Positions 9,486 to 21,824 are shown, counted from the first letter of the stretch. The stretch: DNA of 32,000 nucleotides from Nitrososphaera viennensis EN76 (GCF_000698785.1 NZ_CP007536.1:540001-572000); one strand, 5' to 3'. The notes: a model not told the origin generated them from the sequence alone. Numbers and translations: made by a program.

Positions 9486-10826
9486 ATGAAGGTAGCGCTT
9501 TCCATCGCAGGGAGCGACTCTGGCGCAGGCGCCGGCATACAGGCCGACCTAAAGACGTTCTCGGCACTTGGCGTCTATGGCTGCACGGCGATAACCGCGC
9601 TGACCGCGCAGAACACAAAAAAAGTAGCAGAGATACACGAAGTCCCGGCAGGAATCGTCGAGGCGCAGGTAACGTCAATCATGACAGACCTGCCGCCTGC
9701 CGCAATCAAGGTAGGCATGGTCTACAGCCGGGAGATAATAGGTGCCATTACAAAATCGCTAAAGCACGCAAGGGCGCCCATCGTGCTTGACCCGATACTT
9801 GCCGCAGGGACAGGCGCAAAACTGCTGAGAGACGACGCGCTCGACCTGTTTGTTTCAAGGTTAATCCCTCTTGCGACCCTTGTCACGCCAAACAGGATGG
9901 AGGCCGAAAAGCTGTCCGGCGTAAGGATAAGGAGCGAAGGCGACGGCGTCGAGGCTGCAAAAAAGCTGAGGGCGCTTGGAGCAAAAAACGTCATTGTCAA
10001 GGGCGGCCATTTCGGGAAAAAGACGGTGACGGACATACTATTGCTTGACAACAGCAGCAAGGTGACAGAGATAACAAACCCGCGCGTCGTCGACATCAAG
10101 GAGAGCCACGGCTCGGGCTGCAACTTTTCCGCTGCAGCCACCGCATACCTTGCGCGTGGCTTGGCGCTTGAAGAAGCGTGCAGGCTGGCAAACGAGTACG
10201 TGCACGACGCCATCAAAAACGCGGTCACGGTGGGAAAGGGCCTGCCGGTCACAAACCCGCTTTCTGCAATCTACAAAGACGCGATGCGGCATAGGGTGCT
10301 TGCAGAGCTGCAGGCGGCAGTCGACAGGCTTGTTTCGCTTGAGGGTTTTTACCGCCTGGTACCAGAAACGCAGACGAATTTCGCGTACGCGCTTCCCGAC
10401 GCTTCCAGCCATTCCGAGGTCGCGGCAGTCCGCGGGAGGATAGCGAGGGCAGGCAACGCCGCTGTGCAGGTGTCAAGGGTAGAGTTTGGCGCCTCCAGGC
10501 ACATGGCGTCTGCCGTCCTGGCGTACATGAGCATCAGGCCGTCGACAAGGGCAGTGGCCAACATCAGGCTTGACCCGGCGATCCTTGCCGCATTCAGGTC
10601 GCTGTTCGAGGTGTCAAGCTACGACAGGAGCAAGGAGCCGCAAGACGTCAAGAGAAAAGAAGGCTCCACCATATCGTGGGGCACAAAAGCCGCGCTTTCC
10701 AAAAACCCTGAGGCGGAGGTGATATACCACGAAGGCGATGTCGGCAAGGAGCCCATGATAACCGTCTTTGGCAGGAACCCCGCAGAAGTGGTATACAAGA
10801 TCGAGCAGGTATTGAAGATTTGCTGA
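9486..10826 (+). CDS. thiDN: bifunctional ThiD-ThiN (HMP/HMP-P kinase fused to archaeal-type thiamine-phosphate synthase)
   Basis: Track ORF 9396..10826, trimmed to ATG 9486 (MKVALSIAGSDSGAGAGIQADLKTF). ThiD motifs are VTPNRMEAEKL, VKGGH and HGSGCNFSAA. The extra ~190-aa C-terminal domain (VPETQTNFAYAL...AVRGRI...) is typical of ThiN fusions known in archaea. Confidence 0.85.
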   Translation: MKVALSIAGSDSGAGAGIQADLKTFSALGVYGCTAITALTAQNTKKVAEIHEVPAGIVEAQVTSIMTDLPPAAIKVGMVYSREIIGAITKSLKHARAPIVLDPILAAGTGAKLLRDDALDLFVSRLIPLATLVTPNRMEAEKLSGVRIRSEGDGVEAAKKLRALGAKNVIVKGGHFGKKTVTDILLLDNSSKVTEITNPRVVDIKESHGSGCNFSAAATAYLARGLALEEACRLANEYVHDAIKNAVTVGKGLPVTNPLSAIYKDAMRHRVLAELQAAVDRLVSLEGFYRLVPETQTNFAYALPDASSHSEVAAVRGRIARAGNAAVQVSRVEFGASRHMASAVLAYMSIRPSTRAVANIRLDPAILAAFRSLFEVSSYDRSKEPQDVKRKEGSTISWGTKAALSKNPEAEVIYHEGDVGKEPMITVFGRNPAEVVYKIEQVLKIC

Positions 10827-10890
10827 GGGTTCTTCTATAGGAAATGCGGTCTTACCTTATATAGTAGGAAATGCGACAGAAACGCCGGCG

Positions 10891-11598
10891 ATGAAAGCAG
10901 TCATACTCGCAGGCGGCCTCGGGACGAGGCTCCAGCCGTATACCTTCTTTATACCCAAGCCGATGCTCCCGCTCGGCAACAAGCCGCTCCTCGAATACAC
11001 GATAGAGTGGCTGAGAAACGCCGGCGGCATCAAAGAGATCGTGATTTGCGTCAGCTACCTCCACAGGACAATCGAGGACTATTTCGAGGACGGGAGCAGG
11101 TTCAACGTCAAGATAGACTACGCCCGCGCAGAGCGACCGCTTGCGACCGCGGGGCAGTTAAAGACCGCGGAAAAGATGCTTGCCGACGACACCTTTGTCT
11201 GCGTCTATGGCGACTCGGTCTACGAGTTTAACCTGCGCAAGATGCTGAAGATGCACAGCGAGAGCAAGGCGTTCGTTTCGATGGCGCTGATGCACTACTC
11301 TACGAAACTGAAATACGGCTTTATCGATGTTGACGGAAGCGACATAACCGGCTGGCGCGAAAAGCCCGAGATAAGCGGGCTCATCAACATCGGCTGCTAC
11401 GTCATGGAACCCGGATTCCTAAAGGCGATACCCAAGGCTGGCGCGTTTGGCATGGACGACGCCGTGAGAAACGCCCTTGCGCAGAAAAAGAAGGTCAAGG
11501 CGTTCGAGGTGGACGGCACCGGGTTCATAGACATCGGCGACAAGAAATCGTACCTTGACGCCTACAAGCAGTTTGCAAGCAGGCTGGGCAAGATATAA
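10891..11598 (+). CDS. sugar-1-phosphate nucleotidylyltransferase (NTP_transferase family)
   Basis: 235 aa. The N-terminal signature is MKAVILAGGLGTRLQPYTFFIPKPMLPL, with YGDSVY and INIGCYV further in. Sugar specificity is not determinable by eye. Confidence 0.85.
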   Translation: MKAVILAGGLGTRLQPYTFFIPKPMLPLGNKPLLEYTIEWLRNAGGIKEIVICVSYLHRTIEDYFEDGSRFNVKIDYARAERPLATAGQLKTAEKMLADDTFVCVYGDSVYEFNLRKMLKMHSESKAFVSMALMHYSTKLKYGFIDVDGSDITGWREKPEISGLINIGCYVMEPGFLKAIPKAGAFGMDDAVRNALAQKKKVKAFEVDGTGFIDIGDKKSYLDAYKQFASRLGKI

Positions 11599-11601
11599 GA
11601 T

Positions 11602-12858
11602 ATGCCGTCGATTGCGCTCTTTGAGGACCACCACTGGCGCAACTTTGCCCCGCTTACGCTGACGAGGGCGACCTTTGACCTCAAGGTGGGCGCAAGGACG
11701 TTCTTTGAAGAGTGCTCGTACGCCGGCAACGCGCCAGACGCGCTGCTCGTGCGCAGGCACCTTGAAAAGGTGACAGCAGAGCGGCATGACGGCTGCAAGA
11801 TAAATCCGGGCGCGCTTGATTCAGACGCCATATTTGTGAACGGGCTCTTGCACCCGGCGACCCTTGACCTGCCGCGCCTTTCAAACGTGAACCACACTTT
11901 TGCGATAACATCTGGAAACCGGCTGCTGGTGGCCCGCCTTTCAAAAAAGTCTGCAGAATACCTGCAAAAATGCGTCGAGGCCGGCAAGCCTGCCAGCATC
12001 AAGGCGCTTGCAGTGGAAAAATCCACGGACATGCAGGGCGCTGAAGGGCTGCTGTCAGAGCCGTGGGACCTGATAAGGGTGCTTGAAAACGCGCTTGCCA
12101 TGCAAACAATAGCAGCAGAGCAGCAGCAGTCAAGCGAAATAATGCAGGGCGCAAAGGTACTTGGAGAAAACGCGGTGGTGGCAGAAGGCGCAGCAATAGA
12201 GGACGGCACGGTGCTTGACGCAAGGAACGGCGGCATCTACATCGGCCCGGGCGCGTACATTTCCCAGAGCAGGATAGTAGGCCCGGCTTACATCGGCTCC
12301 CAGACGCAGGTAAAGCAGTTCTCTATAATAGAGAAAAGCTATGTCGGAAGGAACTGCCGCGTCGCCGGCGAGATAGAGCATTCCATAGTTTCCGATTACA
12401 CGAACAAGGCCCATGACGGGTTTTTGGGCCACTCGTACGTCGGCGAGTGGGTCAACCTCGGTGCCATGACCACCACGTCCGACCTGAAGATGACGTACGG
12501 CAACATACGGATTGAAGGTCATGATACGGGCCTTGACAAGCTGGGCTCTTTCTTTGCAGACATGAGCAAGACTTCCATAGGCACGCTCGTCTACAGCGGC
12601 CGCAGGATCGGGGTCTCGTCGCACCTCCACGGCCTCGTCGCAGGCGACGTCCCGTCGTTTACGATATACGGGAAGGGCATCGGCGCAAAAAACGTCGAGC
12701 TAGAGCTTGCGTCTGCGATAGAGACCCAGAGAAAGGTGATGCCAAGGCGCGGCCAGCAGATGAGCAAGGCGTACGAGCAGATGGTAAAGGACGTGTTCCT
12801 TTCGACCGCGCAGGAGAGGAAGAAGGCAGGCGTGCGCAGGGCCAAGTTTGTTGTTTAA
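11602..12858 (+). CDS. GlmU-like protein: degenerate nucleotidyltransferase-like N-domain plus left-handed beta-helix (hexapeptide-repeat) C-domain
   Basis: 418 aa, starting 3 nt after the previous stop. Imperfect hexapeptide repeats span about residues 170-340 (VLGENAVVAEGAAIEDGTVLDARNGGIYIGPGAYISQSRIVGPAYIGSQTQV...). Confidence 0.7.
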   Translation: MPSIALFEDHHWRNFAPLTLTRATFDLKVGARTFFEECSYAGNAPDALLVRRHLEKVTAERHDGCKINPGALDSDAIFVNGLLHPATLDLPRLSNVNHTFAITSGNRLLVARLSKKSAEYLQKCVEAGKPASIKALAVEKSTDMQGAEGLLSEPWDLIRVLENALAMQTIAAEQQQSSEIMQGAKVLGENAVVAEGAAIEDGTVLDARNGGIYIGPGAYISQSRIVGPAYIGSQTQVKQFSIIEKSYVGRNCRVAGEIEHSIVSDYTNKAHDGFLGHSYVGEWVNLGAMTTTSDLKMTYGNIRIEGHDTGLDKLGSFFADMSKTSIGTLVYSGRRIGVSSHLHGLVAGDVPSFTIYGKGIGAKNVELELASAIETQRKVMPRRGQQMSKAYEQMVKDVFLSTAQERKKAGVRRAKFVV

Positions 12859-12891
12859 TTATGTGAGAAAATCGCTCCCTTCGAGCGTCCA

Positions 12892-12911
12892 ATGCAACAA
12901 AAACGTTGCAT
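12892..12911. repeat. perfect 7-6-7 palindrome ATGCAAC-aaaaac-GTTGCAT (candidate recombinase core site)
   Basis: Read directly from the sequence. A third near-copy, GTTGCAc, follows at 12917-12923. The site is ~190 bp upstream of the integrase start. Confidence 0.5.
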
Positions 12912-13104
12912 AATCCGTTGCACAGGCGCGAAAACTCAAGCTAGCCCTGAAAATATGCAGACACTAAACTTCTGCTTGGGCATTCATCAAGTAACACTAA
13001 CAAATTTTCCGACTTTATTATCTGTTATTTGGTATATCTATCCCCCTACTACGTCACTGTCTGTCAGTTCTAGGTGCTACTATAAAGGAAGAGGTAGATG
13101 AATA

Positions 13105-14469
13105 GTGGCTCAAACGCTTGTACAAAGGAAGAGCCGCTTAAGGGTCAAGGGCTTGAAGGTAAAGGACAGAGAGAAGATCAAGGAAGCAATAGCGATCAGC
13201 ATCCAGAATGGCAATTACACAACGAGAGAAATCGGTGTTGACATAGGCAAGGATCACAGTACCATCTCACGTTATCTCTCAGAGATGGAAAGAGAGGACA
13301 AGTGGGGAATACGGCGGGATGCCAATGGTAGCATCATTATCTCGTTGCAAAAGCAGCTTGCACAGGAACACAGGCAATTAGAAAATGAACCGTTCAACCA
13401 GCTGCCTGCAATCCAGAAATGGATAACGTACCTGAAGTCAGGCGGAATCCTTCCAAGGAGGATCCAGTACCTTGTAAACGTGGTTCACGGAATGTCTGAC
13501 CAGCTGAAGGTGATGCCGGAGACTCTCGTAAGCTTTGGTGTACCCCTCGACACGATGAAGCGAAAAGAGATAGCGATAGAATACTGGCGGAACTTTCTTG
13601 CGTGGTTCAATGTCGCTTACCCACAGATGCAAAAGACAAACACCATCAACGCTTATCGAAGCTTTCTTGCAGCTCACAACATCAACTTTGCTCACGGGGA
13701 AGGCAGGCGCTATGGACTGTCAACCACGCCGGAAAGGCTTGGGGAGTACAAGGACATCATGCTCACGCCGGAACAGATAGACAGGATAAACAGACTGCTG
13801 GAGGGTGAAAGCGACTGGGAAGCTTGGAGTTTTATGAATATCGATCTCCATACCGGAGCTAGAGCCTTTGCCATGGCGTCTATGAGCTGGAATAGGGTGG
13901 CATTCTTACCGGTGTTCAGAGTTGAACAGTTTGAGCCAAAGATAAAGCGTGGAGACTGGTACCTGACAAAGGAGGGTAAGTGGTGGGTAAAGTACCCGAC
14001 AGAAGAGTGCAGGATTGTAGTCGAGACTGCACGTGATAGGTTACCAAAAGAAAGGAAATTCTTATTTTTTGACGATGCAAAAAGCGACAAGGCAAATGCG
14101 CTACAAGCTTCTTACTTTATGTCAAAAATGGCGATTAGGTTCAAGAAGATATTCTCGGGGCTGAACAAAAGCAGTTGGCTAAACGAAAAGACACGGATAT
14201 ACGCGCTAGGAGATGGGCTGTACTTTAATGGACATCCCTTGCATCTCATGAGACATACTATGGCTCAGTACTATCTGGCAGCGACAAATTGGTCACTTGC
14301 GTACGTCGCAAGCTTGGGAGGGTGGGAAAACACAGAAGTGTTGAACAAGTGCTACGGCGGAATTCCTGAACACATTAAAGCGCAGATAGCAAAGTCAATC
14401 CATGTAAGGTTTGATACTCTTGTCCTGAATACTTTTGGATCAGCTCTACATGGTTCGTTACTCACTTGA
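13105..14469 (+). CDS. int: tyrosine recombinase / integrase with N-terminal HTH
   Basis: 454 aa with a GTG start at 13105. CTATAAAGG lies at 13079-13087 and GAGGT lies 9 nt upstream. The N-terminal HTH is YTTREIGVDIGKDHSTISRYLSEME. Catalytic boxes are LHTGARAF (Arg), HLMRHT (HxxR), and LGGWENTEVLNKCYGG (Trp in the His/Trp position, plus the Tyr nucleophile). Confidence 0.85.
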   Translation: MAQTLVQRKSRLRVKGLKVKDREKIKEAIAISIQNGNYTTREIGVDIGKDHSTISRYLSEMEREDKWGIRRDANGSIIISLQKQLAQEHRQLENEPFNQLPAIQKWITYLKSGGILPRRIQYLVNVVHGMSDQLKVMPETLVSFGVPLDTMKRKEIAIEYWRNFLAWFNVAYPQMQKTNTINAYRSFLAAHNINFAHGEGRRYGLSTTPERLGEYKDIMLTPEQIDRINRLLEGESDWEAWSFMNIDLHTGARAFAMASMSWNRVAFLPVFRVEQFEPKIKRGDWYLTKEGKWWVKYPTEECRIVVETARDRLPKERKFLFFDDAKSDKANALQASYFMSKMAIRFKKIFSGLNKSSWLNEKTRIYALGDGLYFNGHPLHLMRHTMAQYYLAATNWSLAYVASLGGWENTEVLNKCYGGIPEHIKAQIAKSIHVRFDTLVLNTFGSALHGSLLT

Positions 14470-15093
14470 AAAGTCTTCCAATCCTGATTTGGGTAATTGT
14501 TTTGTTGTCCTTTTGTAATACCCCTCTTTCAAGTCAATGAGGTAATTGTAGGAAACTAGGACATCGAGAATAGCCTTGATCGGCTGTTTGTTTCCGACTA
14601 TATCTCTGCCCAGATCATACATCTCTGCTTTTGCAAATGCCCTACTGCCAAACTTTTCGTCAATCCTCGTTACTGCCTTTGCAAGCAGCGAATCCTTCTC
14701 GTAAAAAGAGCCGAGGTTGATAATGTAGATTTTCTCGCCTTCTACTGATACGTATGCCTTTATCCTTTCCGGGCCTGCTAGGCTCTTGTGGTACGTGTAT
14801 TTACCTCTCTTTCCGTTGATCACCTTGTCAGCATAGGCAGTGAGAAACGGGTTGACATCAAATTCCGGGTCAATAGAGTATTCTAAAGGCGGTCTATCTT
14901 TGACGACTGCCTGCGGGTTGGGATTCAGTAGCGCTTGCACATCTTTGAGCATGTTTGGAAAGATGGATACGTGCTCACCGTAACCCGTCCTTTTGATTTT
15001 CAAAAAGCCCCACTTTCTAAGGTCATCATATGCTTTGGTTGATTCTCCTTTTTCTGACGTGGCAGTGCCTTTCATCGAGTCTTCCTTGGACAT
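14458..15093 (-). CDS. hypothetical protein (211 aa), island-borne
   Basis: ATG at 15093..15091. Composition is island-like. The C-terminus (IKAILDVLVSYNYLIDLKEGYYKRT) is possibly wHTH-like. The 3' end overlaps the integrase 3' end by 12 nt (convergent). Confidence 0.55.
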   Translation of the reverse strand: MSKEDSMKGTATSEKGESTKAYDDLRKWGFLKIKRTGYGEHVSIFPNMLKDVQALLNPNPQAVVKDRPPLEYSIDPEFDVNPFLTAYADKVINGKRGKYTYHKSLAGPERIKAYVSVEGEKIYIINLGSFYEKDSLLAKAVTRIDEKFGSRAFAKAEMYDLGRDIVGNKQPIKAILDVLVSYNYLIDLKEGYYKRTTKQLPKSGLEDFSSE

Positions 15094-15245
15094 GTGTCGC
15101 TCCCCGATACAGTTAGAATAGTATAATTTCCTGAGTATGGCAAGATGATAACTGTTAAACGTACAAGCTTCCCCTCTGCTTGCCTATCACGCAAAGCATG
15201 GCGTGATAATACGCCATAAATGATATAAAGATTACTAAAAACGAT

Positions 15246-15668
15246 ATGTATAATACATACTCTGTGGCACAATATACTATGAACGTTAGCGAGGAATTTG
15301 GAAGCCCAAAAGGAGTTCTGGAATGGCTTGTTTCTGGAAATGCATCGGCTAGACTTCTGGATTTCTTTGTGACAAACAAAGAGTTTGACTACTCTGAAAC
15401 AGATGCCGCAGAATCATCTGGAGTATCTTTACGAACTGTATCCCGGGAATTACCAAAGTTTGAATCCGCCGGTATCATAAAGTTCACAAGAAACGTAGGA
15501 AGAGCAAAGATGTACAGATTTGACCAGAACTCAGAAATCGCCAAGTATCTAGAACAATTTGTATTTGCAGCTGCAACTAGGCGAATTGAAGCATCCATGA
15601 TGCAATCAGAGGCGCAAACCTCCTCTGTTGGGAAGAAAATAGAAACGGCTCGGTTGGCAAATAGCTAA
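15246..15668 (+). CDS. winged-helix (ArsR/TrmB-like) transcriptional regulator
   Basis: 140 aa. ETDAAESSGVSLRTVSRELPKFESAGIIKFTRNVGRAKMYRF forms an HTH plus wing. ATG 15279 (MNVSEEF) is an alternative start, better spaced from GATATAAAG at ~15222-15230. The gene is divergent from 14458..15093. Confidence 0.65.
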   Translation: MYNTYSVAQYTMNVSEEFGSPKGVLEWLVSGNASARLLDFFVTNKEFDYSETDAAESSGVSLRTVSRELPKFESAGIIKFTRNVGRAKMYRFDQNSEIAKYLEQFVFAAATRRIEASMMQSEAQTSSVGKKIETARLANS

Positions 15669-15698
15669 TTGAGTTACAAGGGGAATCGCTGAAACAAT

Positions 15699-16019
15699 TC
15701 ACAGAGGGTGCGATTCAATCTTGATCGGAACCCTCGAAACAATTTCTTCAAAGATCGAATTCAAAGATTTTTTCTTCATCGATATAGATTGTTCAGCGTT
15801 GGTTGGAGGCATTCTAATCAAACATAGTGTTTGGTTCAGATGATATCTGGCTTTTTTACCCGGTCCCGGATACTCATATTTTTCCATATTTACGGGTGGA
15901 GAAATATCTTGATATTCCTTAAGAAGTTGGTTCCAAGAGAGGTCTGCTAGACTCCTTGCCATCTTCCTTATATCATGCTCGGATTTCTCAGGATTTTGAC
16001 GAAAGAGAGCTCGGATCAT
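15699..16019 (-). CDS. hypothetical 106-aa protein, third gene of the McrBC-like operon
   Basis: The track gives 15699..16055 with a TTG start. I prefer ATG 16019..16017, which overlaps the McrC-like TGA (16018..16016) as ATGA. Product: MIRALFRQNPEKSEHDIRKMARSLADLSWNQLLKEYQDIS... No recognisable motif. Confidence 0.5.
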   Translation of the reverse strand: MIRALFRQNPEKSEHDIRKMARSLADLSWNQLLKEYQDISPPVNMEKYEYPGPGKKARYHLNQTLCLIRMPPTNAEQSISMKKKSLNSIFEEIVSRVPIKIESHPL

Positions 16020-17329
16020 AGTTTCAATTCTCTCACTCCTATTAAGATCATCCAATTCTTTGGATGATTGGGATATATCAGAGCACCAAAGTTTGCATCC
16101 AGATTCGTCATGTAGGCAAGCATCTTATCTCTAGTCTCTGAAATGGAACTCGATTTTGAATAGTTCTTCGCATCGAAGATAGCTATGATCTCATTATCAA
16201 TCATAGCAGTAAAATCTGGCTTGTGTCTTTGAATCCAAGCATTAGGGCCTCCAGCAGCAAATTCTTTTTCATACCAAAAGATTACAATATGGCCATTAAA
16301 TTCGAATTTACAATGAGGGTCATTTCCTAACTGAAAATCAACTAAAAGTCCCTTTTCAAACAAGAACTCTACAAACTCCATGAATATCCAAATTTCGTAA
16401 ATAGTATCCAAATTCTCAATAGGTTCGATGATGTGCCTTGAAGGGGTCTTCTCAGATATGCTTGACATGTTCAGCTGTCTAAATTCTTCTATCCAATTCA
16501 ACAACAATGAATAAGTCGGGTTACGTACGAGGTTTTGATTTATCCGCCGTCTTGTCTCGTCTTCCAAGTTTTTTATTCTGGTATCATTATGCGATAAATC
16601 CCAATACTTCCTTGATGCATTTAGCACAGAGGGGAGTGGGAAACGCTGAAGGATGTCTCTGGTTTTTTGAACCACTCCTTTCAATAATTGTATTTTGTAG
16701 TCGGTCAACGGTTCAAGAAACTGCGTATGAAGCAACCTGATTGATTCCCTACGCATCCATTCTGCACACAGCACCAGAAGAATATTTTCGGGTGTATCAA
16801 ACTCCCTTTTCCGGACTGATGCAGAAAATGCCAATGGAAATTCCATCGGTGACTTGGTTAGTGTTTTTGTCCAATCTATTTTACCTCTAATGCCCGGCCC
16901 ATAGTATTCTATCCGCGGATAATCAAAGTGTATTTCGTCAACAATCTTCTTATAGATTGCAAAGTATTGCATGTAGAGGATTTCTAACTTGTTTAGATCT
17001 GCGAGGGGATTTGGGATTCTAAAAACTCCAACATCGTTTTTAATTTCAAAATAGGCTTCATAAGACCTCCTGTGTTTCAGAATAAGGGAGAGTAATCTGT
17101 CATACATGTACTGCTTAGTTTCAGGTGGTTCAAGAACAACCCGAACCAACTGGTGCCATTTCCATCCATTCTCACGATACTTGCTAAGCTTGAAGGCATC
17201 CTTTAGCTCCTTGTTTTGAGGGAGATTGATAAAAACATCATCGACGCCAGCCAGAAGTGACATTGAGATATTTCCTCCATTTGGATCATTGAGCCATTTT
17301 ATTTTCTCTATAAGCTCATTTTCTTCCAT
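16016..17329 (-). CDS. mcrC: McrC-like subunit: DUF2357-type N-region plus PD-(D/E)xK nuclease
   Basis: 437 aa. Family hallmarks are GKIDWTKT, FDTPENILLVL and IYEIWIFMEFVEFL. The catalytic block is HKPDFTAMIDNEIIAIFDAKNY (PD...DxK, nt 16166-16219). Its ATG abuts the upstream TAA. Confidence 0.8.
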   Translation of the reverse strand: MEENELIEKIKWLNDPNGGNISMSLLAGVDDVFINLPQNKELKDAFKLSKYRENGWKWHQLVRVVLEPPETKQYMYDRLLSLILKHRRSYEAYFEIKNDVGVFRIPNPLADLNKLEILYMQYFAIYKKIVDEIHFDYPRIEYYGPGIRGKIDWTKTLTKSPMEFPLAFSASVRKREFDTPENILLVLCAEWMRRESIRLLHTQFLEPLTDYKIQLLKGVVQKTRDILQRFPLPSVLNASRKYWDLSHNDTRIKNLEDETRRRINQNLVRNPTYSLLLNWIEEFRQLNMSSISEKTPSRHIIEPIENLDTIYEIWIFMEFVEFLFEKGLLVDFQLGNDPHCKFEFNGHIVIFWYEKEFAAGGPNAWIQRHKPDFTAMIDNEIIAIFDAKNYSKSSSISETRDKMLAYMTNLDANFGALIYPNHPKNWMILIGVRELKL

Positions 17330-20092
17330 TTAGACCACAGCGGATCTTCTTAGGTCAGTAATTCCTTGTTTAAATTGGACTAACCCTAATTCGAAGTTTT
17401 TCTTTTTATCTTCAAAGGCAGTTTGGATCTGACTCCAAATGTTGTCATTTTCAATTTTCATGACTCCGGCCGAAAATTCTTCTGCCCGCGTTTTGTAATT
17501 GCTTATCTGTAAATACTCCAATACTTTTTCAAATGGTTCTCCATAGCTTTGACGATTTGGACTCTTGTAAGCATCCTTGAAGTATTGCACGATATTTTCA
17601 TTGTACAGAGCCTCAATCGTGCCTAGCGATGCTGAAGAAAGGTTTTCAAGCTGGGGTATTAGTGTTGAAGTCAATGCATTGTCTAATGATAATTTTGCAT
17701 CCTTTGTAATCCTAAGTGCTACCAGCATGTTCTGATAGATTAGCTGCAAAACGGCTGTTCCAAGTTTCTTAAAAACACGAACCAAATCCAGAAAATAGTA
17801 TGCTTGGAGTATACGATTGTAGAATTCTGCATTTGATCTTCCGGGGAGTACCTTCTTGCCGATATCATCGAGCAGAATAAAGTCTTCATAATCTTTTAAC
17901 CGCAACTCGGAAATTGCATTTTTCATGGCATAGTAGACCTCTTTTTCATAGTCTTCTTTCCTTGGTATATCTATCTCGATGTAAGCAAATCTGCTTTTTA
18001 GTGCATCTGATAATTGGAATAGGAAATGCTTGTCTGCAGTATTTAGCGTTCCAATTATTCTGTAGTCTTGTGGAATTCGTAGTTCTTTATAGGATGTATC
18101 TGTCTCGTTTGTTGGTATCTTGAGCAATCTTGTCCTAAGCGCCGTGAATAGCTGGCCGAATGCTTTATCGATATCTGCCCTGTTGAACTCATCGATTACA
18201 AGCCATGTTCCTCTATACTGCGGCCTTCTTGCCAGATGTACGCTAGGTATACGTAGACCACCATCTGTTCCGCGTTCCCAATTTCTTGCAACAGTCTCCG
18301 CTACACATCCATACTGAATGTCATATGCTACCCTCCCGTTTTCCATCTTTGGATATATTCCACCTATTACGTCCTGTGTATTCCAATCTGCAGTGGCAGT
18401 ATAGTATTCTGCATAGTATCCGCCAATCTTTTCCCAAAATAATTCAGGAATCAATTGGGCTAATCGAGTCTTTCCTGTTCCAATTGGGCCTGCAAGCAGC
18501 ACGTGTCTGCCACTTGCAAGGGCTGTCACTATTTCAATGACCTTTTCTTTGGGGACCAGGAGCGAGCTGCGAATTTTTTCGTAACCGTTTTCTATCTCCT
18601 CATACGTTGGAATGGATAGAGGGCTATCATCAAAAGTTTCAAGATGTGGAGTATCTTTTTCCTCTGAGGAGGATTCTGATTTTAGACAGTGGTATAAGAA
18701 CCTCCAAAAGGTTGTGTTGTCCCATCGCTGATTAAATTGACTATTAATTTCATCCTTGGCCTCAAGTAGTAACTCAGTATGTAATTCGTACTTTTCTCCG
18801 TTTGACAAGACACCATAATCCTTTCCATATTTGTCTTTAGCTTTTTCAATGTATTTCTTGCCAAGCTTAGTCGAGAATAGCTCCATGTCCTGCATACTGA
18901 ATACGGCCAGAGATCTGTCTGAATTGTAAAGGTAAATGATTTTCTTTGGAATTGCTTTTTCGCCACCGAAACCACTAATTTTCTCCCAAGGCGCATTGAC
19001 TTTTTCTAAAAGCGATTTGTTTCTATCTACAGCTATTTTGAGCAGATCCTTGAATAATTTCAGATTTTCTTCAGTGATTCCCCATACGCTAGCCTCGGCT
19101 CCGGTCTTTCCCACATTTTCAGCTATTTCACTCCAATAATAGTAAAAAGTGTCTTTGCTACCACGTTCATAAATATCACTTACTTGTAGCTCATCAATGA
19201 GATCAGGGTGTTGATGATAGGGATAGCGACTTAGGAATTTGTTAAGTGCCTCACGTGCTTTCTCGATCTTTTCATCATCATTACGAATACTCTGAAGGCA
19301 TGGTAGGATCTCTTTTGTAACCAACGAATCAGAATCCAATGATGGCGTTTCCTTTAACATCCAATAACCCGAACCTATTTCTTTTGGCTGAAATAGATCT
19401 CTTCCAGAGCCACGAGAATTAGCTTGCAAATAGTATCTGATTATGTTTTCATAATCCTTAGGTAGGATTTCGTTCTTGCTTCTTCTTATCTCTGCAAATA
19501 CCTTGTAGATATCGCTTAGGTGATAATACTTAGCTGCTCCTCCTAGTTTCATGTAGGTGTCGATAAGATCACTGATCCAAGTAGATTCTTCAGTATCAAC
19601 TAATCCCTGATTTGTTTCGTTCGTCTTTTCTTTTAAGTCACTAATTTGGTCCCATTTGTTTAGAAAATTTACCAAGGAATGTTCCTTCCCGGGAGCACGA
19701 TTTACTACTAGAGTATTATGTGAACCATTGCGTTCAATGATACTAAAATCCCATTGCAATTTACCTTGCTTGAAATTAGGCTCCACCTGACTGAAAAATG
19801 CCTCCAATGCGCTGCCGGGTATGACGAATGTGTGCTCAGGATTCTTTTCTAGCATTATAGCGTAATAGTGTCTAGGGCTTGAAACTAGCTTATTGTAATC
19901 ATCCCGCGATAAGTCATACCATCCTCTATTGTTTGGATGAATGATGGAATCATTGACATATACTACTGACTCGGATTGTAGATGCGGATCGGGTATTATC
20001 CTAAGCCATGATTTTCTTTCTGGACCGATTATTTTGATATTCTTGTATTTATTCTGGAGGTAATCTCTAAGAATTTCCGCGGCTGAGGGCAT
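17330..20092 (-). CDS. mcrB: McrB-family AAA+ GTPase with ~530-aa N-terminal and ~200-aa C-terminal uncharacterised regions
   Basis: 920 aa. Walker A is LLAGPIGTGKT (aa 531-542, nt 18467-18490 for GPIGTGKT). The Walker B/McrB signature is WLVIDEFNRADIDKAFGQLF (nt 18146-18202). IIGTLNTADK carries the NxxD motif (nt 18032-18043). A probable wHTH lies at aa ~175-247 (IIRYYLQANSRGSGRDLFQPKEIGSGYWMLK). Confidence 0.85.
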   Translation of the reverse strand: MPSAAEILRDYLQNKYKNIKIIGPERKSWLRIIPDPHLQSESVVYVNDSIIHPNNRGWYDLSRDDYNKLVSSPRHYYAIMLEKNPEHTFVIPGSALEAFFSQVEPNFKQGKLQWDFSIIERNGSHNTLVVNRAPGKEHSLVNFLNKWDQISDLKEKTNETNQGLVDTEESTWISDLIDTYMKLGGAAKYYHLSDIYKVFAEIRRSKNEILPKDYENIIRYYLQANSRGSGRDLFQPKEIGSGYWMLKETPSLDSDSLVTKEILPCLQSIRNDDEKIEKAREALNKFLSRYPYHQHPDLIDELQVSDIYERGSKDTFYYYWSEIAENVGKTGAEASVWGITEENLKLFKDLLKIAVDRNKSLLEKVNAPWEKISGFGGEKAIPKKIIYLYNSDRSLAVFSMQDMELFSTKLGKKYIEKAKDKYGKDYGVLSNGEKYELHTELLLEAKDEINSQFNQRWDNTTFWRFLYHCLKSESSSEEKDTPHLETFDDSPLSIPTYEEIENGYEKIRSSLLVPKEKVIEIVTALASGRHVLLAGPIGTGKTRLAQLIPELFWEKIGGYYAEYYTATADWNTQDVIGGIYPKMENGRVAYDIQYGCVAETVARNWERGTDGGLRIPSVHLARRPQYRGTWLVIDEFNRADIDKAFGQLFTALRTRLLKIPTNETDTSYKELRIPQDYRIIGTLNTADKHFLFQLSDALKSRFAYIEIDIPRKEDYEKEVYYAMKNAISELRLKDYEDFILLDDIGKKVLPGRSNAEFYNRILQAYYFLDLVRVFKKLGTAVLQLIYQNMLVALRITKDAKLSLDNALTSTLIPQLENLSSASLGTIEALYNENIVQYFKDAYKSPNRQSYGEPFEKVLEYLQISNYKTRAEEFSAGVMKIENDNIWSQIQTAFEDKKKNFELGLVQFKQGITDLRRSAVV

Positions 20093-20126
20093 TATAGCAG
20101 TGCTGAAAGGAGAAGGTATGTTATTA

Positions 20127-20140
20127 GCATTATGATATAT
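20127..20140 (-). promoter_or_regulatory. TATA-like box upstream of the McrBC-like operon
   Basis: The minus strand reads ATATATCATAATGC, 35-48 nt upstream of ATG 20092. It is flanked upstream by two TCAGTGT repeats. Confidence 0.3.
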
Positions 20141-20272
20141 CTCAGTGTCTTTTCAGTGTTTCCAGATGTAATGCTCACGAATAGCTTGGCTGAAAGAGCT
20201 TTCCACGATTCCATTCCTGAATTGAATTTAGTCAGCGAAGGAGGATGCTGTAGGGTTTGAGCCTGTGTACTG

Positions 20273-20322
20273 TTTGTTGCATATACTATTACTCCCGGTC
20301 TAACTGCAAATTGCTATGCAAC
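20273..20322. repeat. inverted heptamer pair GTTGCAT (20276-20282) / ATGCAAC (20316-20322) at the right island edge
   Basis: Read directly. TTTGTTGCAT (20273-20282) is the exact reverse complement of ATGCAACAAA (12892-12901) at the left edge. Confidence 0.45.
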
Positions 20323-20434
20323 GGAACCGAAAGATAATTAATTAGTTAGTTAGTTTGCGCCCGGAGTTTTGAACACCGCAAGCCCTGTCCAAGCCGCCAG
20401 AAAAATAACAGAAATAGAAACAAAAATTGATGAT

Positions 20435-20460
20435 GCCCTGCCCGTCTGTTAGAGCAGGGC
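20435..20460 (-). terminator. hairpin plus T-rich tract downstream of the SIMPL-domain gene
   Basis: GCCCTGC-12 nt-GCAGGGC is a 7-bp stem lying 9 nt past the stop (20469-20471). On the minus strand it is followed by AATTTTTGTTTCTATTTCTGTTATTTTT. Confidence 0.4.
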
Positions 20461-20468
20461 AAATGCTG

Positions 20469-21686
20469 CTACGTGTCGCCACCTTTGCCCAGTTCAAACT
20501 CGACTGTGACTGATTTCGATATCTCTCCGCTTATGTTCGGGTAATAGGGCTGGATTATGTGCACGCCCCTGTATGGGATCAAGCCGCCGTACGGATTTGG
20601 CGAGTCCGTGGCTGCCTCTATGCTCACGATTCCGTTTACCTGAAGCCCCAGCGACTGCGCCATCTCTTCTGCCCTGCTCTTTGCACTGTCAAACGCCTGC
20701 TTGCCAAGTTCCTTCCTGGCCTGGTCTATGGCGGCATCGGATGCTGACAGGTAGACGTTTTCGACGTTTGCGCCGCCCATCTTCTTGACTGCGGCGGTTA
20801 CCTTCTCTATGTCGGCGGCGTCCGTCCTGACGATTATCTGCGTGTACATGCTGTAGCCGGCATTCTGGTTTGAGCCGTAGAAGAACGGGTAGATGTTGAG
20901 GTTGTTCTGCCGTACCTGGTCTTCCGAGATTCCGGTTTCCCTCAGCACGGCCAGGAGGCTCCTGTACTTTTGCTCATACTCTGCTATCGACTTTGTCAGC
21001 ACATCCGGCTTTGTGTTCAGCGAGACGCCGACGGTTATCGGGTTGCGCTCCAAAGTCCGGGTCTGGTTTTCTGCGCCGTCACCGACCTCGACTGAAGTGC
21101 TGCCCGCCGCTGCGCTCTCGGCTTTTCTGAGTATTGCGGCCGAGTAGCTTGGGTCTATGTACACGCTTTCAAACCCAAAGCCGGCATCTGCGAGCTTGCT
21201 GACCAGCCCGGGCAGGCGGTCGATGTTTGTCTGGACGGCGACTGAAGCGTATACGTTAAACGTCACGTTGTTGGAGGCCGGCACGCCCGTGTTTGAGTAG
21301 TAAGGGTTCAGGGATTGCTGGCCGAAGGCTATTGTCGTCCTGTCGCCTGCAGCTTCCCTCACGGCCTGCGCTATTTGCTGCGTCCTTGCTTGGTGCTTGC
21401 TCAAGACGGAAGATAGTTCGCCGGGTTCTGTCTGCGCGTTTATTATTATGGTGGCCTGGTCCGGCGTGATTGTTGTTGATGCCTCCCCCGTCACCTTGAT
21501 GGTCGCAGGTTTTCCGCCAGACGGCAGCGCTGCGTAATCTTGGCTGTATGCTTTCTGGAAATCGTTTTTGAGCAACAGCGGGGTGCCTGCAACAAAAAAT
21601 GACGTGCTGGCTACCGCCGCCGACAAGACAACAGCTAACACGATAGCTATTGTCGGAAGCTTTTTTCTGGAAAAGTTATTCATCAA
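20469..21686 (-). CDS. SIMPL (DUF541) domain protein with N-terminal signal anchor
   Basis: 405 aa. The N-terminal TM is LPTIAIVLAVVLSAAVASTSFFVAG. IKVTGEASTTITPDQATIIINAQT and the C-terminal DQARKELGKQAFDSAKSRAEEMAQSLGLQVNGIVSIE match the SIMPL pattern. It is longer than usual, through either an insertion or a tandem domain. Confidence 0.6.
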   Translation of the reverse strand: MMNNFSRKKLPTIAIVLAVVLSAAVASTSFFVAGTPLLLKNDFQKAYSQDYAALPSGGKPATIKVTGEASTTITPDQATIIINAQTEPGELSSVLSKHQARTQQIAQAVREAAGDRTTIAFGQQSLNPYYSNTGVPASNNVTFNVYASVAVQTNIDRLPGLVSKLADAGFGFESVYIDPSYSAAILRKAESAAAGSTSVEVGDGAENQTRTLERNPITVGVSLNTKPDVLTKSIAEYEQKYRSLLAVLRETGISEDQVRQNNLNIYPFFYGSNQNAGYSMYTQIIVRTDAADIEKVTAAVKKMGGANVENVYLSASDAAIDQARKELGKQAFDSAKSRAEEMAQSLGLQVNGIVSIEAATDSPNPYGGLIPYRGVHIIQPYYPNISGEISKSVTVEFELGKGGDT

Positions 21687-21824
21687 AAGCCGGTTTTGCG
21701 CCGCGTTTATTTAAGAAATTATCCAAACGAAATAGACTTTGAAAAATCTGTTGTTTAACGGGGCAATAACCTGCTGACAAGATGATTATTGGCCGGTGCA
21801 CGGACAACATATACTCTGCTACTG

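What the first reader, a model, noticed from the sequence alone, without database searches (positions are those of the whole stretch)
15699..20092. Translationally coupled three-gene McrBC-like module with an atypical 920-aa GTPase subunit: candidate undescribed archaeal defence system
Seen: the three minus-strand genes have zero or negative spacing (TAAATG at 17327-17332; ATGA at 16016-16019). The 920-aa protein carries the McrB-clade signatures rather than generic AAA+ ones. These are GPIGTGKT (18467-18490), VIDEFNRADIDKAFGQLF (18146-18202) and LNTAD with the NxxD motif (18032-18043). The 437-aa protein carries McrC/DUF2357 hallmarks (GKIDWTKT, FDTPEN, IYEIWIF) and a PD...DAK nuclease core (16166-16219). 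Established: McrB hexamers with McrC form a GTP-dependent, modification-dependent type IV restriction enzyme. Unusual features: only ~190 of 920 residues are the GTPase core; ~530 N-terminal and ~200 C-terminal residues match nothing I recognise; there is a third coupled gene; and the module is the sole cargo of an integrase element in a thaumarchaeon-like host. Caveat: the enzymatic core is a known family. The novelty claim concerns the architecture, sensor and third subunit.
Basis: partly seen in the sequence, partly recalled or inferred. Interest (0 to 1): 0.8.

Follow-up and report, generated by a model that had tools for sequence, protein, structure and literature searches.

The report
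Frameshifted two-gene McrBC restriction module
This is a two-gene McrBC-type (modification-dependent) restriction module on a known integrated element of the archaeon Nitrososphaera viennensis, and the supposed third gene is only the tail of the nuclease gene, cut off by a one-base deletion.

Summary
The window is Nitrososphaera viennensis EN76 (genome coordinate = window + 540000). The island is the published integrated element NitVie-E2, where the 437-aa protein was already annotated as McrC. The 920-aa protein is a McrB-clade AAA+ GTPase. The 437-aa protein is a McrC homologue: its structure model matches solved McrC chains and its PD..DxK residues are invariant.

The "third coupled gene" is not a gene. 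In close relatives and in more than 150 homologues, McrC is a single protein of about 540 aa. EN76 lost one G from a GGG run at 16052-16053, which splits off the conserved C-terminal domain. The family layout is two genes in every locus examined.

The "unrecognisable" 530 N-terminal residues are three modules that recur in other McrB-like proteins. They are swapped between near-identical copies of this element. The C-terminal 200 residues belong to the conserved core.

A sister element has a nonsense codon in mcrB, and a third copy shows no lesion as far as its contig reaches.

Verdict: a divergent member of a known kind, and damaged in this strain. The remaining novelty is the set of uncharacterised sensor modules.

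The parts
12849..12858 (+). Left attachment-site repeat TGTTGTTTAA. It overlaps the stop codon of the 418-aa sugar-nucleotidyltransferase gene (11602-12858), which is the integration target.
   Evidence: The repeat occurs exactly twice in the window, against 0.06 expected. Krupovic et al. give the same att for NitVie-E2. ORF end, Pfam.
13105..14469 (+). Tyrosine integrase (454 aa) of the element, with an N-terminal HTH.
   Evidence: Weak Pfam hits to Phage_integrase and HTH_38. Listed as a XerC/XerD-like integrase in PMC6563490. 83% identical to the L001 copy, which is broken into three reading frames.
14458..15093 (-). Conserved element gene (211 aa) of unknown function.
   Evidence: No family hit. 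91% identical in L001 with dN/dS 0.05. Also present in L032.
15246..15668 (+). Winged-HTH regulator (140 aa), convergent with the mcrBC operon.
   Evidence: Sub-threshold hits to HTH_Crp_2, Fur and ArsR. 96% identical in L001.
15699..16052 (-). The 'gene 3' of the finding. It is the codons for residues 427-543 of the ancestral 543-aa McrC plus the stop codon, now out of frame with the upstream part. An in-frame ATG at 16019-16017 overlaps the new stop codon.
   Evidence: L001 encodes one 543-aa ORF that is 94% identical over this stretch. 53 family members continue through it, and R506, P509, K519 and I530 are nearly invariant. It is a well-folded domain in the AF2 model, with pLDDT mostly 84-97.
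16052..16053 (-). Frameshift site. The run is GG here and GGG in L001 (AAT TGG GAT), so there is a 1-nt deletion after codon 426.
   Evidence: DNA alignment. The same 437-aa product appears on at least 24 contigs from independent assemblies and runs, including a second complete genome, CP103305.1.
16016..17329 (-). Truncated McrC homologue (437 aa). It has the DUF2357-like N-terminal part and the PD-(D/E)xK core (D372, D386, K388), and it ends in 11 out-of-frame residues.
   Evidence: Sub-threshold Pfam hits to McrBC and PDDEXK_7. The AF2 model of the intact 543-aa homologue P0004 (L001) has pLDDT 87.9. Its top Foldseek hits in the PDB are the McrC chains 6hz4_M, 6ut6_G and 6ut7_G, with probability 1.00. 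Invariant residues.
17333..17977 (-). McrB residues 706-920. This is the C-terminal helical part, conserved together with the GTPase core within the subclade.
   Evidence: 95% identical to L001 and 97% to L032. Part of the 480-920 block that is 65-70% identical to L016 and L018. The profile match to T. gammatolerans McrB runs on past the core, to profile position 263 of 358. More distant relatives end earlier than this subclade in the A3 alignment.
17978..18652 (-). McrB residues 481-705, the AAA+ GTPase core. It carries Walker A GPIGTGKT, Walker B DEFNR and the NxxD signature LNTAD. Relative to more distant homologues there is an insertion of about 35 aa between Walker A and Walker B.
   Evidence: Pfam AAA_5 at 1.3e-15. 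PDB McrB 6ut3 at 3e-13, with the NTAD and DExNR motifs aligned. Profile against PDB McrB at about 1e-28. Invariant columns.
18653..19318 (-). McrB residues 259-480, 'module C'. It is an all-alpha domain of about 210 aa from an unannotated family. The family also occurs as stand-alone proteins of 200-350 aa and in other McrB-like proteins.
   Evidence: More than 100 relatives. pLDDT above 90. No Pfam or PDB sequence match. Weak Foldseek similarity to HhH-GPD glycosylases. Only 60% identical to L001 but 94% to L032 and 77% to P0002, so it has been swapped as a cassette.
19319..19597 (-). McrB residues 166-258, 'module B'. It is a short helical module, about three helices over residues 168-226.
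   Evidence: Seven relatives, all in or next to AAA_5 proteins. pLDDT about 80-94 over residues 168-226. Apparently absent from the L032 copy.
19598..20092 (-). McrB residues 1-165, 'module A'. It is an alpha/beta module from an unannotated family.
   Evidence: 29 relatives, most at the N-terminus of AAA_5 proteins; one (P0234) is fused to an HNH_2 nuclease. It is duplicated in the 1277-aa L018 McrB. The L032 copy carries a version only about 25-29% identical. It is not EVE by hhalign. The model has low confidence here.
20342..21758 (.). Right-hand variable segment of the element. It holds a 405-aa SIMPL/DUF541 gene (20469-21686, minus strand, host-like GC) and the right att repeat at 21749-21758.
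   Evidence: Homology with L001 stops at 20341. L001 has its own 11-bp direct repeat 1.3 kb beyond the shared part. Pfam SIMPL at 2e-35. att.

Best explanation
The locus is a canonical (NxxD-clade) McrBC type IV restriction module. It is carried as cargo by NitVie-E2, an integrase-bearing integrated element of Nitrososphaera viennensis EN76.

Shown: the homology, the motifs and the two-gene operon. Inferred from the solved E. coli and T. gammatolerans complexes: the 920-aa McrB forms a hexameric AAA+ GTPase ring. Its three N-terminal modules (A, B, C) would select the DNA to be attacked, most likely DNA carrying a foreign base modification. The N-terminal part of McrC would plug into the ring and stimulate GTP hydrolysis, and its PD-(D/E)xK domain (D372/D386/K388) would cut the DNA.

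The ancestral operon has two genes, mcrB and a 543-aa mcrC. In EN76 a single G was lost from a GGG run after codon 426 of mcrC. McrC now ends 11 residues later, and its conserved C-terminal domain of about 115 aa is left as an orphan ORF, which is the 'third gene'. The system in this strain is therefore most likely crippled. At best it works as a split protein, if translation restarts at the ATG that overlaps the new stop codon.

A sister element (L001) carries an independent nonsense mutation in mcrB. A third copy (L032) has an intact 543-aa mcrC and an mcrB that is open over the 825 codons its contig holds, so the family itself is a live system.
For: McrB identity. Pfam AAA_5 at 1.3e-15. The best solved relatives are the McrB GTPases 6ut3 and 6hz4, with DExNR and NTAD aligned. 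By profile, McrB scores about 1e-28 against about 1e-7 for the next single-domain AAA+ proteins. The Walker A glycines and lysine, the D, E, N and R of the DExNR Walker B, and the N and D of NxxD are invariant in the subfamily alignment.

McrC identity. The AF2 model has pLDDT 87.9. The Foldseek top three PDB hits are McrC chains, E 3e-8 to 9e-7, probability 1.00. Pfam hits to McrBC and PDDEXK_7 are just below threshold. P371, D372, D386, A387 and K388 are invariant in 53 homologues. The protein is listed as arCOG05102 McrC in PMC6563490.

Two-gene layout. mcrB lies immediately upstream of mcrC, with 0-4 nt spacing or overlap in most loci, in every related locus complete enough to judge.

Frameshift. 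L001 has one 543-aa ORF, and the window lacks one G. At least 155 homologues were found, typically 536-543 aa long and covering 99% of the 543-aa query. The family consensus reads through the break...NWDDL.... The lesion is reproducible in at least 24 contigs.

Sister lesions. TAG replaces CAG at codon 609 of the L001 mcrB, and the same change is seen in the independent sample L002. In L032, mcrC is intact at 543 aa and mcrB is open for the 825 codons on the contig.

Selection. dN/dS is 0.11-0.29 across mcrB and 0.12 for mcrC codons 1-426.

Defence context elsewhere. One homologous pair sits next to a gasdermin and S8 protease pair and DUF4062 on an MCM/PriX element.
Against: There is no biochemical or genetic evidence for GTPase activity, nuclease activity or restriction. 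The PADLOC models gave no hit on any of the three proteins beyond P-loop noise. McrC has no significant sequence match to solved McrC chains, even with a 53-sequence profile, so membership rests on structure prediction, weak Pfam hits and gene context. Global TM-scores to the McrC structures are low (0.2-0.34), as expected for an elongated multidomain protein, but this is not proof of a shared fold. The ligand of modules A-C is unknown. The orphan C-terminal ORF shows no further decay: there are no internal stops, and many family-consensus residues are retained. The frameshift is therefore recent, and loss of function is not proven.
Confidence: 0.85

Rival explanations
1. Split but functional McrC. 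After the frameshift, translation terminates at the TGA and restarts at the overlapping ATG (ATGA, 16016-16019). The 437-aa nuclease part and the 106-aa C-terminal domain are then both made and reassemble, so the strain effectively has a working three-polypeptide system.
For: The stop and start codons overlap. The PD-(D/E)xK core elements up to strand 414-419 lie upstream of the break. The orphan ORF has no internal stops and keeps family-consensus residues. The 106-aa ORF is called as a gene in many assemblies.
Against: The ATG is an ordinary internal Met codon of the 543-aa protein, and no Met reaches consensus at that position. Residues 427-437 are lost and replaced by 11 unrelated residues. 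dN/dS of the orphan part is 0.61 against 0.12 upstream, although this rests on only about 10 substitutions. None of the homologous loci examined is split at this point. There are no expression data, and a literature search for the locus tags found nothing.
Confidence: 0.12
2. One reading: a real three-gene system in which the 106/118-aa protein is a dedicated third subunit, defining an undescribed archaeal defence system.
For: The gene spacing in this genome is zero or negative, and the small ORF has no annotated family.
Against: The small ORF is collinear and 94% identical with the C-terminus of a single 543-aa ORF in the sister element, differing by one deleted G. In at least 155 homologues the same sequence is the C-terminal domain of McrC. 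No locus with an intact McrC of this family carries a separate homologue of it.
Confidence: 0.02
3. Sequencing or assembly artefact: the missing G is a homopolymer error, and the strain really has an intact 543-aa McrC.
For: The lesion lies in a short G run.
Against: The identical 437-aa product is found on at least 24 contigs. These come from a second complete genome (CP103305.1), an ENA synthetic-metagenome assembly and many independent short-read run assemblies. A run of two or three G is not error-prone on short-read platforms (general knowledge).
Confidence: 0.02
4. Not a restriction system. The AAA_5 protein would be a MoxR/GvpN-like remodelling ATPase, with an unrelated nuclease-fold partner used for element maintenance or another cellular task.
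For: NCBIfam gives equally weak hits to McrB and GvpN, both far below their cut-offs. Midasin AAA_5 modules also match the profile.
Against: Per-domain scores strongly favour McrB, about 104 bits against about 27 bits for any single midasin module. The NxxD signature is present and invariant. The partner's best structural matches are McrC chains. The N-terminal modules co-occur with EVE, MrcB_N and HNH in relatives, which is typical of type IV restriction enzymes. There is no VWA partner.
Confidence: 0.03

Closest known systems
Thermococcus gammatolerans McrBC (PDB 6ut3-6ut8) and E. coli K-12 McrBC (6hz4, 6ut6)
   Same: The McrB AAA+ core has Walker A, DExNR and NTAD motifs that align residue for residue. 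McrC has a DUF2357-like N-terminal part plus a PD-(D/E)xK domain, and these McrC chains are the best structural matches. It is a two-gene operon with mcrB first. An N-terminal specificity region is fused to the GTPase.
   Different: The N-terminal region is 480 aa in three modules, none of which is the DUF3578/ADAM domain of E. coli. The DUF3578/MrcB_N and EVE models that hit relatives did not hit this protein, and hhalign of module A against EVE regions was negative. The GTPase core has an insertion of about 35 aa, and the C-terminus runs further than in more distant relatives. The motif reads NTADK rather than NTADRS. McrC is about 540 aa, with an extra conserved C-terminal domain of about 115 aa. 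In this strain mcrC is frameshifted.
McrBC pairs on other thaumarchaeal integrated elements (NitKor_MY1-E2, NitAQ6f-E5; arCOG03779/arCOG05102) and element NitVie-E2 itself (Krupovic et al. 2019, PMC6563490)
   Same: This is the same kind of cargo on the same kind of integrase element, and NitVie-E2 is this very locus (552849-561758 of CP007536). Its 437-aa protein is already listed there as McrC.
   Different: In that catalogue the 920-aa protein and the 106-aa ORF are listed as 'hypothetical'. The frameshift, the McrB identity and the module structure were not noted in the parts I read.
Canonical NxxD branch of the McrBC census (Bell, Makarova, Wolf, Koonin 2024, PMC11090510)
   Same: It has the NxxD motif, small modular N-terminal specificity domains, and McrC with a DUF2357-like part plus PD-DxK.
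   Different: It is not a CoCoNuT or NxD-branch system: the motif is NxxD and the partner keeps an invariant PD..DxK nuclease core, which many CoCoNuT McrC homologues lack. No methyltransferase or helicase family was hit by any element gene scanned. Whether this thaumarchaeal subclade appears in their tree was not checked.
Single-chain type IV enzymes that fuse a reader domain to HNH (ScoMcrA-like architectures)
   Same: A relative of module A is fused to an HNH_2 nuclease (P0234). Relatives of the McrB partner carry precomputed ScoMcrA_N/DUF8426 hits.
   Different: Here the effector is the McrB and McrC pair, not HNH. The window protein itself has no ScoMcrA_N hit.

Membership tests
McrBC type IV restriction system (NxxD clade) | McrB-type AAA+ domain with Walker A GxxGxGK[ST] and Walker B DExNR | tested here: met
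   GPIGTGKT is at aa 535-542 and VIDEFNR at 632-638. Both motifs are covered by the alignments to T. gammatolerans McrB 6ut3. The glycines and lysine of Walker A and the D, E, N and R of DExNR are invariant in 11 subfamily members.
McrBC type IV restriction system (NxxD clade) | NxxD signature motif of McrB GTPases | tested here: met
   LNTAD at aa 683-687 aligns with MNTAD of 6ut3. The N and D are invariant in the subfamily. The definition of the motif comes from PMC11090510.
McrBC type IV restriction system (NxxD clade) | Closer to McrB than to other AAA+/AAA_5 clades | tested here: met
   phmmer against the PDB gives McrB at 3e-13 and the next family (Lon) at 0.037. The profile gives McrB at about 1e-28 (about 104 bits in one domain), against about 27 bits for any single midasin module and about 1e-7 for VCP and RuvB. 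The NCBIfam McrB equivalog hit is far below its cut-off (31.8 against 637 bits), so this is not an equivalog of E. coli McrB.
McrBC type IV restriction system (NxxD clade) | Partner McrC with a DUF2357-type N-terminal part | tested here: inconclusive
McrBC type IV restriction system (NxxD clade) | PD-(D/E)xK nuclease domain with catalytic residues in McrC | tested here: met
   P371, D372, D386, A387 and K388 are invariant in 53 homologues. PDDEXK_7 matches 26 of 53 members, best E 5.5e-6. The secondary-structure order in the model fits the fold.
McrBC type IV restriction system (NxxD clade) | Two adjacent co-oriented genes with mcrB upstream | tested here: met
   TAA and ATG abut at 17327-17332. 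The same order, with 0-4 nt spacing or overlap in most loci, holds in every related locus that was complete enough to judge.
McrBC type IV restriction system (NxxD clade) | N-terminal domain of McrB that recognises modified DNA | tested here: inconclusive
   Modules A, B and C match no annotated reader family. In relatives they sit beside EVE and MrcB_N domains or are fused to HNH, and they are exchanged as cassettes. This is the behaviour of specificity domains, but binding was not and cannot be tested here.
McrBC type IV restriction system (NxxD clade) | GTP-dependent, McrC-stimulated, modification-dependent DNA cleavage | not testable with these tools
   This needs biochemistry or genetics.
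McrBC type IV restriction system (NxxD clade) | Both genes intact in this genome (i.e. a working copy) | tested here: not met
   mcrC carries a 1-nt deletion after codon 426. This bears on function in EN76, not on family membership.
   The third ORF is the C-terminal domain of McrC in L001, in L032 and in the family as a whole, which has at least 155 homologues. No separate copy exists in any locus.
CoCoNuT / NxD-branch McrBC | NxD motif, coiled-coil fusion, McrC often without a nuclease, helicase and RNA-binding partners | tested here: not met
   The motif is NxxD. The nuclease is present. No helicase family was hit by any element gene scanned. The criteria are taken from PMC11090510.
LlaJI-type McrBC relatives with cognate methyltransferases | Adjacent DNA methyltransferase genes | tested here: not met
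   None of the six element genes scanned matched a methyltransferase family, and the 405-aa gene matched only SIMPL/DUF541.

The most novel reading that the evidence does not exclude
The N-terminal 480 residues hold three unannotated, independently mobile specificity modules. Module C is an all-alpha domain of about 210 aa with a conserved GFGGDKxIAKKII hairpin-like motif, and has more than 100 relatives, many of them stand-alone. It could be a catalytically dead descendant of the HhH-GPD DNA-glycosylase fold, recruited as a base-flipping reader of modified DNA. That would be a new class of type IV restriction sensor. Near-identical copies of one small archaeal element would then swap such sensors as cassettes (A1-B-C1, A1-B-C2 and A2-C1) in an arms race with thaumarchaeal viruses.
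Probability: 0.2. Interest if true: 0.55.

Novelty: new member of a known kind. Interest (0 to 1): 0.3.

Why it matters
Defence systems of ammonia-oxidising archaea are almost unstudied, and N. viennensis is one of the few cultivated soil representatives. Knowing that its only McrBC-type module is a two-gene system with a frameshifted nuclease prevents a false 'new three-gene system' from entering catalogues. It also warns anyone who would clone the operon to repair the G run first.

The comparative data show an McrBC subclade found mainly in Nitrososphaeria, with a few bacterial members, whose McrC is about 540 aa. Its sensor modules are exchanged between elements that are otherwise about 95% identical. 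These unannotated modules are reasonable candidates for new readers of modified DNA. Such readers would be of practical interest as epigenetic tools, but this is only a lead.

Tried and rejected
- PADLOC models on all six element proteins gave nothing relevant.
- NCBIfam gave only far-sub-threshold McrB and GvpN hits.
- phmmer and a 53-sequence profile of McrC against PDB sequences found no McrC.
- A profile of module C against PDB sequences gave no hit even at E<=10.
- Pfam scans of stand-alone proteins related to modules A and C gave no family, apart from one HNH_2 fusion and some AAA_5 fragments.
- hhalign of module A against the EVE regions of three relatives gave probability 0.2%, so 'A is an EVE domain' is rejected.
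- hhalign of module C against an endonuclease III alignment, whose E. coli sequence was verified against PDB 2abk, gave probability 0.3%. The HhH-GPD idea therefore rests only on weak Foldseek hits to 3n0u, 1orn and 7ulc (E 0.28-2.7).
- BFVD viral structures gave nothing.
- The word-index homologue search with the 920-aa protein, or with its N-terminus, found only three relatives because P-loop words swamped it. The exhaustive search was needed.
- Polarising the substitutions in the orphan C-terminal ORF against outgroups gave no clear sign of decay.
- A literature search for the locus tags NVIE_006850/60/70 found nothing.
- No tRNA gene lies in the window. The element targets the 3' end of a protein-coding gene.

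Full report
**What is in the sequence**

The three minus-strand ORFs exist as described. They are 17330-20092 (920 aa), 16016-17329 (437 aa) and 15699-16055 (118 aa from a TTG, or 106 aa from the ATG at 16019). The junction sequences and all quoted motifs are at the stated positions, give or take a codon. The ORFs lie in a stretch of about 7.5 kb with GC 0.38-0.47, inside DNA of GC about 0.55. There is no tRNA gene in the window.

**Where it comes from**

The 437-aa protein is identical to 'hypothetical protein [Nitrososphaera viennensis]' on contigs of 2.52-2.53 Mb. The supplement of Krupovic et al. 2019 (PMC6563490) gives gene coordinates that equal window coordinates plus 540000, for example NVIE_RS03325 at 556016..557329. 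It names the island NitVie-E2 (552849..561758 of CP007536, att TGTTGTTTAA, integrated in a gene). That 10-mer occurs exactly twice in the window, at 12849 and 21749. The left copy contains the stop codon of a 418-aa sugar-nucleotidyltransferase gene. In that catalogue the 437-aa protein is already called McrC (arCOG05102). The 920-aa and 106-aa proteins are listed as 'hypothetical', and NCBI calls the 920-aa protein 'AAA family ATPase'.

**The large protein is a McrB**

- Pfam finds AAA_5 at residues 530-702.
- The best solved relatives are the McrB GTPases of Thermococcus gammatolerans and E. coli. VIDEFNRADIDKAFGQLF aligns to IIDEINRGNISKIFGELI, and TLNTADKH aligns to TMNTADRS.
- A profile of the C-terminal half scores McrB at about 1e-28 in a single domain. 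Other AAA+ proteins reach only about 1e-7, and individual midasin modules about 27 bits.
- The Walker A glycines and lysine, the D, E, N and R of the DExNR Walker B, and the N and D of NxxD are invariant in the subfamily.

These are the defining features of McrB GTPases as summarised by Bell et al. 2024 (PMC11090510), and the motif places the protein in the canonical NxxD branch.

**The 437-aa protein is a McrC homologue**

Sequence evidence is weak. Pfam McrBC scores 21.3 bits against a cut-off of 23.9, PDDEXK_7 scores 20.1 against 22.1, and there is no PDB sequence hit even with a profile. I therefore modelled the intact 543-aa homologue with a 53-sequence alignment (pLDDT 87.9, pTM 0.79). 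Foldseek against the PDB returned McrC chains of the E. coli and T. gammatolerans McrBC complexes as hits 1, 2, 3 and 5, with probability 0.99-1.00. Global TM-scores are low, as expected for an elongated two-domain protein. P371, D372, D386, A387 and K388 are invariant.

**The third gene is an artefact of a frameshift**

A forest-soil scaffold (L001) carries the same element at 88.6% nucleotide identity over window 12855-20341, with unrelated flanks. There, McrC and 'gene 3' are one 543-aa ORF. Residues 1-426 are 97.7% identical to the 437-aa protein, and residues 427-543 are 94% identical to the small ORF.

The DNA alignment shows a single difference that matters: GAATTGGGATG in L001 against GAATTGGATG in the window. 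Searching with the 543-aa protein found at least 155 homologues. Most are from Nitrososphaeria, typically 536-543 aa long, and cover 99% of the query. Their consensus reads straight through the break (...PNHPxNWDDL...) and has nearly invariant residues in the C-terminal part. That part is confidently folded in the model.

The frameshifted form is on at least 24 contigs from independent assemblies, including a second complete genome. It is therefore a real mutation of the strain and not a sequencing error.

The ATGA overlap arises because the shifted frame happens to stop on an ordinary internal Met codon. In the twelve GTDB loci and the other loci I fetched, every locus complete enough to judge has two genes. 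A McrB of 606-1277 aa, with Walker A, DExNR and NxxD[KR], is followed directly by a McrC of about 440-560 aa. A few of these loci are bacterial (Patescibacteria, Chloroflexota, Acidobacteriota).

**The 'unrecognisable' parts of McrB**

Residues 480-920 are 65-70% identical to the McrB partners of this McrC family in Nitrosarchaeum limnium and other thaumarchaea, whose N-termini are different. The 200 C-terminal residues therefore belong to the conserved core. The match to T. gammatolerans McrB extends into them, and this subclade runs further at the C-terminus than more distant relatives do.

An exhaustive search with residues 1-515 found 179 relatives, which resolve into three modules: A (5-165), B (165-255) and C (260-475).

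- All three recur at the N-termini of other AAA_5/McrB-like proteins, next to EVE or MrcB_N domains.
- A relative of module A is fused to an HNH nuclease.
- Module C is often a stand-alone protein.
- None of the three has a Pfam family.
- In the AF2 model, module C is a confident all-alpha domain, module B a small helical unit, and module A poorly predicted.

Foldseek gave only weak hits for module C. Three of them are HhH-GPD-fold enzymes: Tm1821 Ogg, endonuclease III and DUF2419. Profile tests did not support this: PDB sequences gave nothing, and hhalign against endonuclease III gave probability 0.3%. It remains a lead only. Module A is not EVE by hhalign.

**Cassette exchange and decay**

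Between the window and L001, most of McrB is 90-95% identical. Module C is only 60% identical, with saturated dS. The window's module C is 77% identical to that of P0002, a McrB whose core is only 37% identical and whose McrC is of another lineage.

A third copy of the element (L032) is 96% identical from residue 249 onwards. It carries a version of module A that is 24-29% identical and apparently has no module B. The sensor region is therefore exchanged module by module between otherwise near-identical elements.

L001 has a TAG where the window has CAG (Q593), and the same change is seen in an independent sample. Its integrase is also broken. In L032, mcrC is intact at 543 aa and mcrB is open for the 825 codons on the contig. 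dN/dS is 0.11-0.29 in mcrB and 0.12 in mcrC 1-426. It is 0.61 in the orphan part, but on only about 10 changes and without clear polarity.

**Mechanism and verdict**

By homology, this is a GTP-driven McrB hexamer whose N-terminal modules select target DNA. A McrC plugs into the ring and cuts with a PD-(D/E)xK site. This is inferred and not shown. In EN76 the nuclease subunit is truncated after its catalytic core and its conserved C-terminal domain is orphaned. The system is probably impaired, with a minority chance of working as a split protein.

The three-gene architecture and the 'undescribed system' claim are not. The remaining novelty is the unannotated sensor modules and their cassette-like exchange.

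Noticed in passing
window 12855-20341 versus 12849-21758: There are two candidate right-hand boundaries for the element. Homology with the sister element L001 ends at 20341, and the shared 7.5 kb is bounded by an 8-bp terminal inverted repeat (TTAATTAT...ATAATTAA). The published 10-bp direct repeat lies 1.4 kb further on and encloses a host-GC 405-aa SIMPL/DUF541 gene. L001 likewise has an 11-bp direct repeat (TGCGTCTGACT) 1.3 kb beyond its shared part, enclosing a different gene (a 231-aa zinc-ribbon protein). The element seems to have a variable right-end slot.
   Followed up: partly
L001 15675-17034 (integrase) and 10001-12811 (mcrB): In the forest-soil copy of the element the integrase is broken into three reading frames. 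mcrB has a TAG nonsense codon at codon 609, while mcrC is intact. This is a different, independent route to inactivation from the one in N. viennensis.
   Followed up: partly
L003 2720-7909 (also L004, L005): A more distant McrBC shares modules B and C with the window protein; its McrB is 831 aa and its McrC 438 aa. It really does have a third, overlapping gene, but upstream: a 466-aa ORF whose stop overlaps the mcrB start. That ORF has no family except an odd Ribosomal_L13e-like stretch at its C-terminus (31.7 bits). It is unrelated to the window's 'gene 3'.
   Followed up: no
L016 9673-17501 (Nitrosarchaeum limnium-like contig): Next to the homologous McrBC pair lie a DUF87 (HerA-like) ATPase, a DUF6884 protein and QueC and PTPS (QueD) genes. 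This set is reminiscent of 7-deazaguanine DNA-modification clusters, so a modification system and a modification-dependent nuclease sit side by side.
   Followed up: no
L033 291-16714: Another homologous pair (McrB 1134 aa, with precomputed ScoMcrA_N/DUF8426 hits) sits beside a bacterial-type gasdermin plus S8 peptidase and a DUF4062 protein. The element also carries MCM and PriX genes, so this is a defence island on a replicating mobile element in a thaumarchaeon.
   Followed up: no
window 12885-12915 and 20272-20292: TTGCAT/ATGCAA-containing repeats sit just inside both ends of the element, for example ATGCAACAAAAACGTTGCAT on the left and its inverted match TTTGTTGCAT on the right. They are possible integrase arm or end-binding sites.
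   Followed up: no
window 18170-18270 (McrB aa about 600-630): The thaumarchaeal subclade has an insertion of about 35 residues (ERGTDGGLRIPSVHLARRPQYRGT...) between Walker A and Walker B that is absent from more distant McrB relatives. The signature reads NTADK, with an invariant Lys, instead of NTADRS.
   Followed up: no
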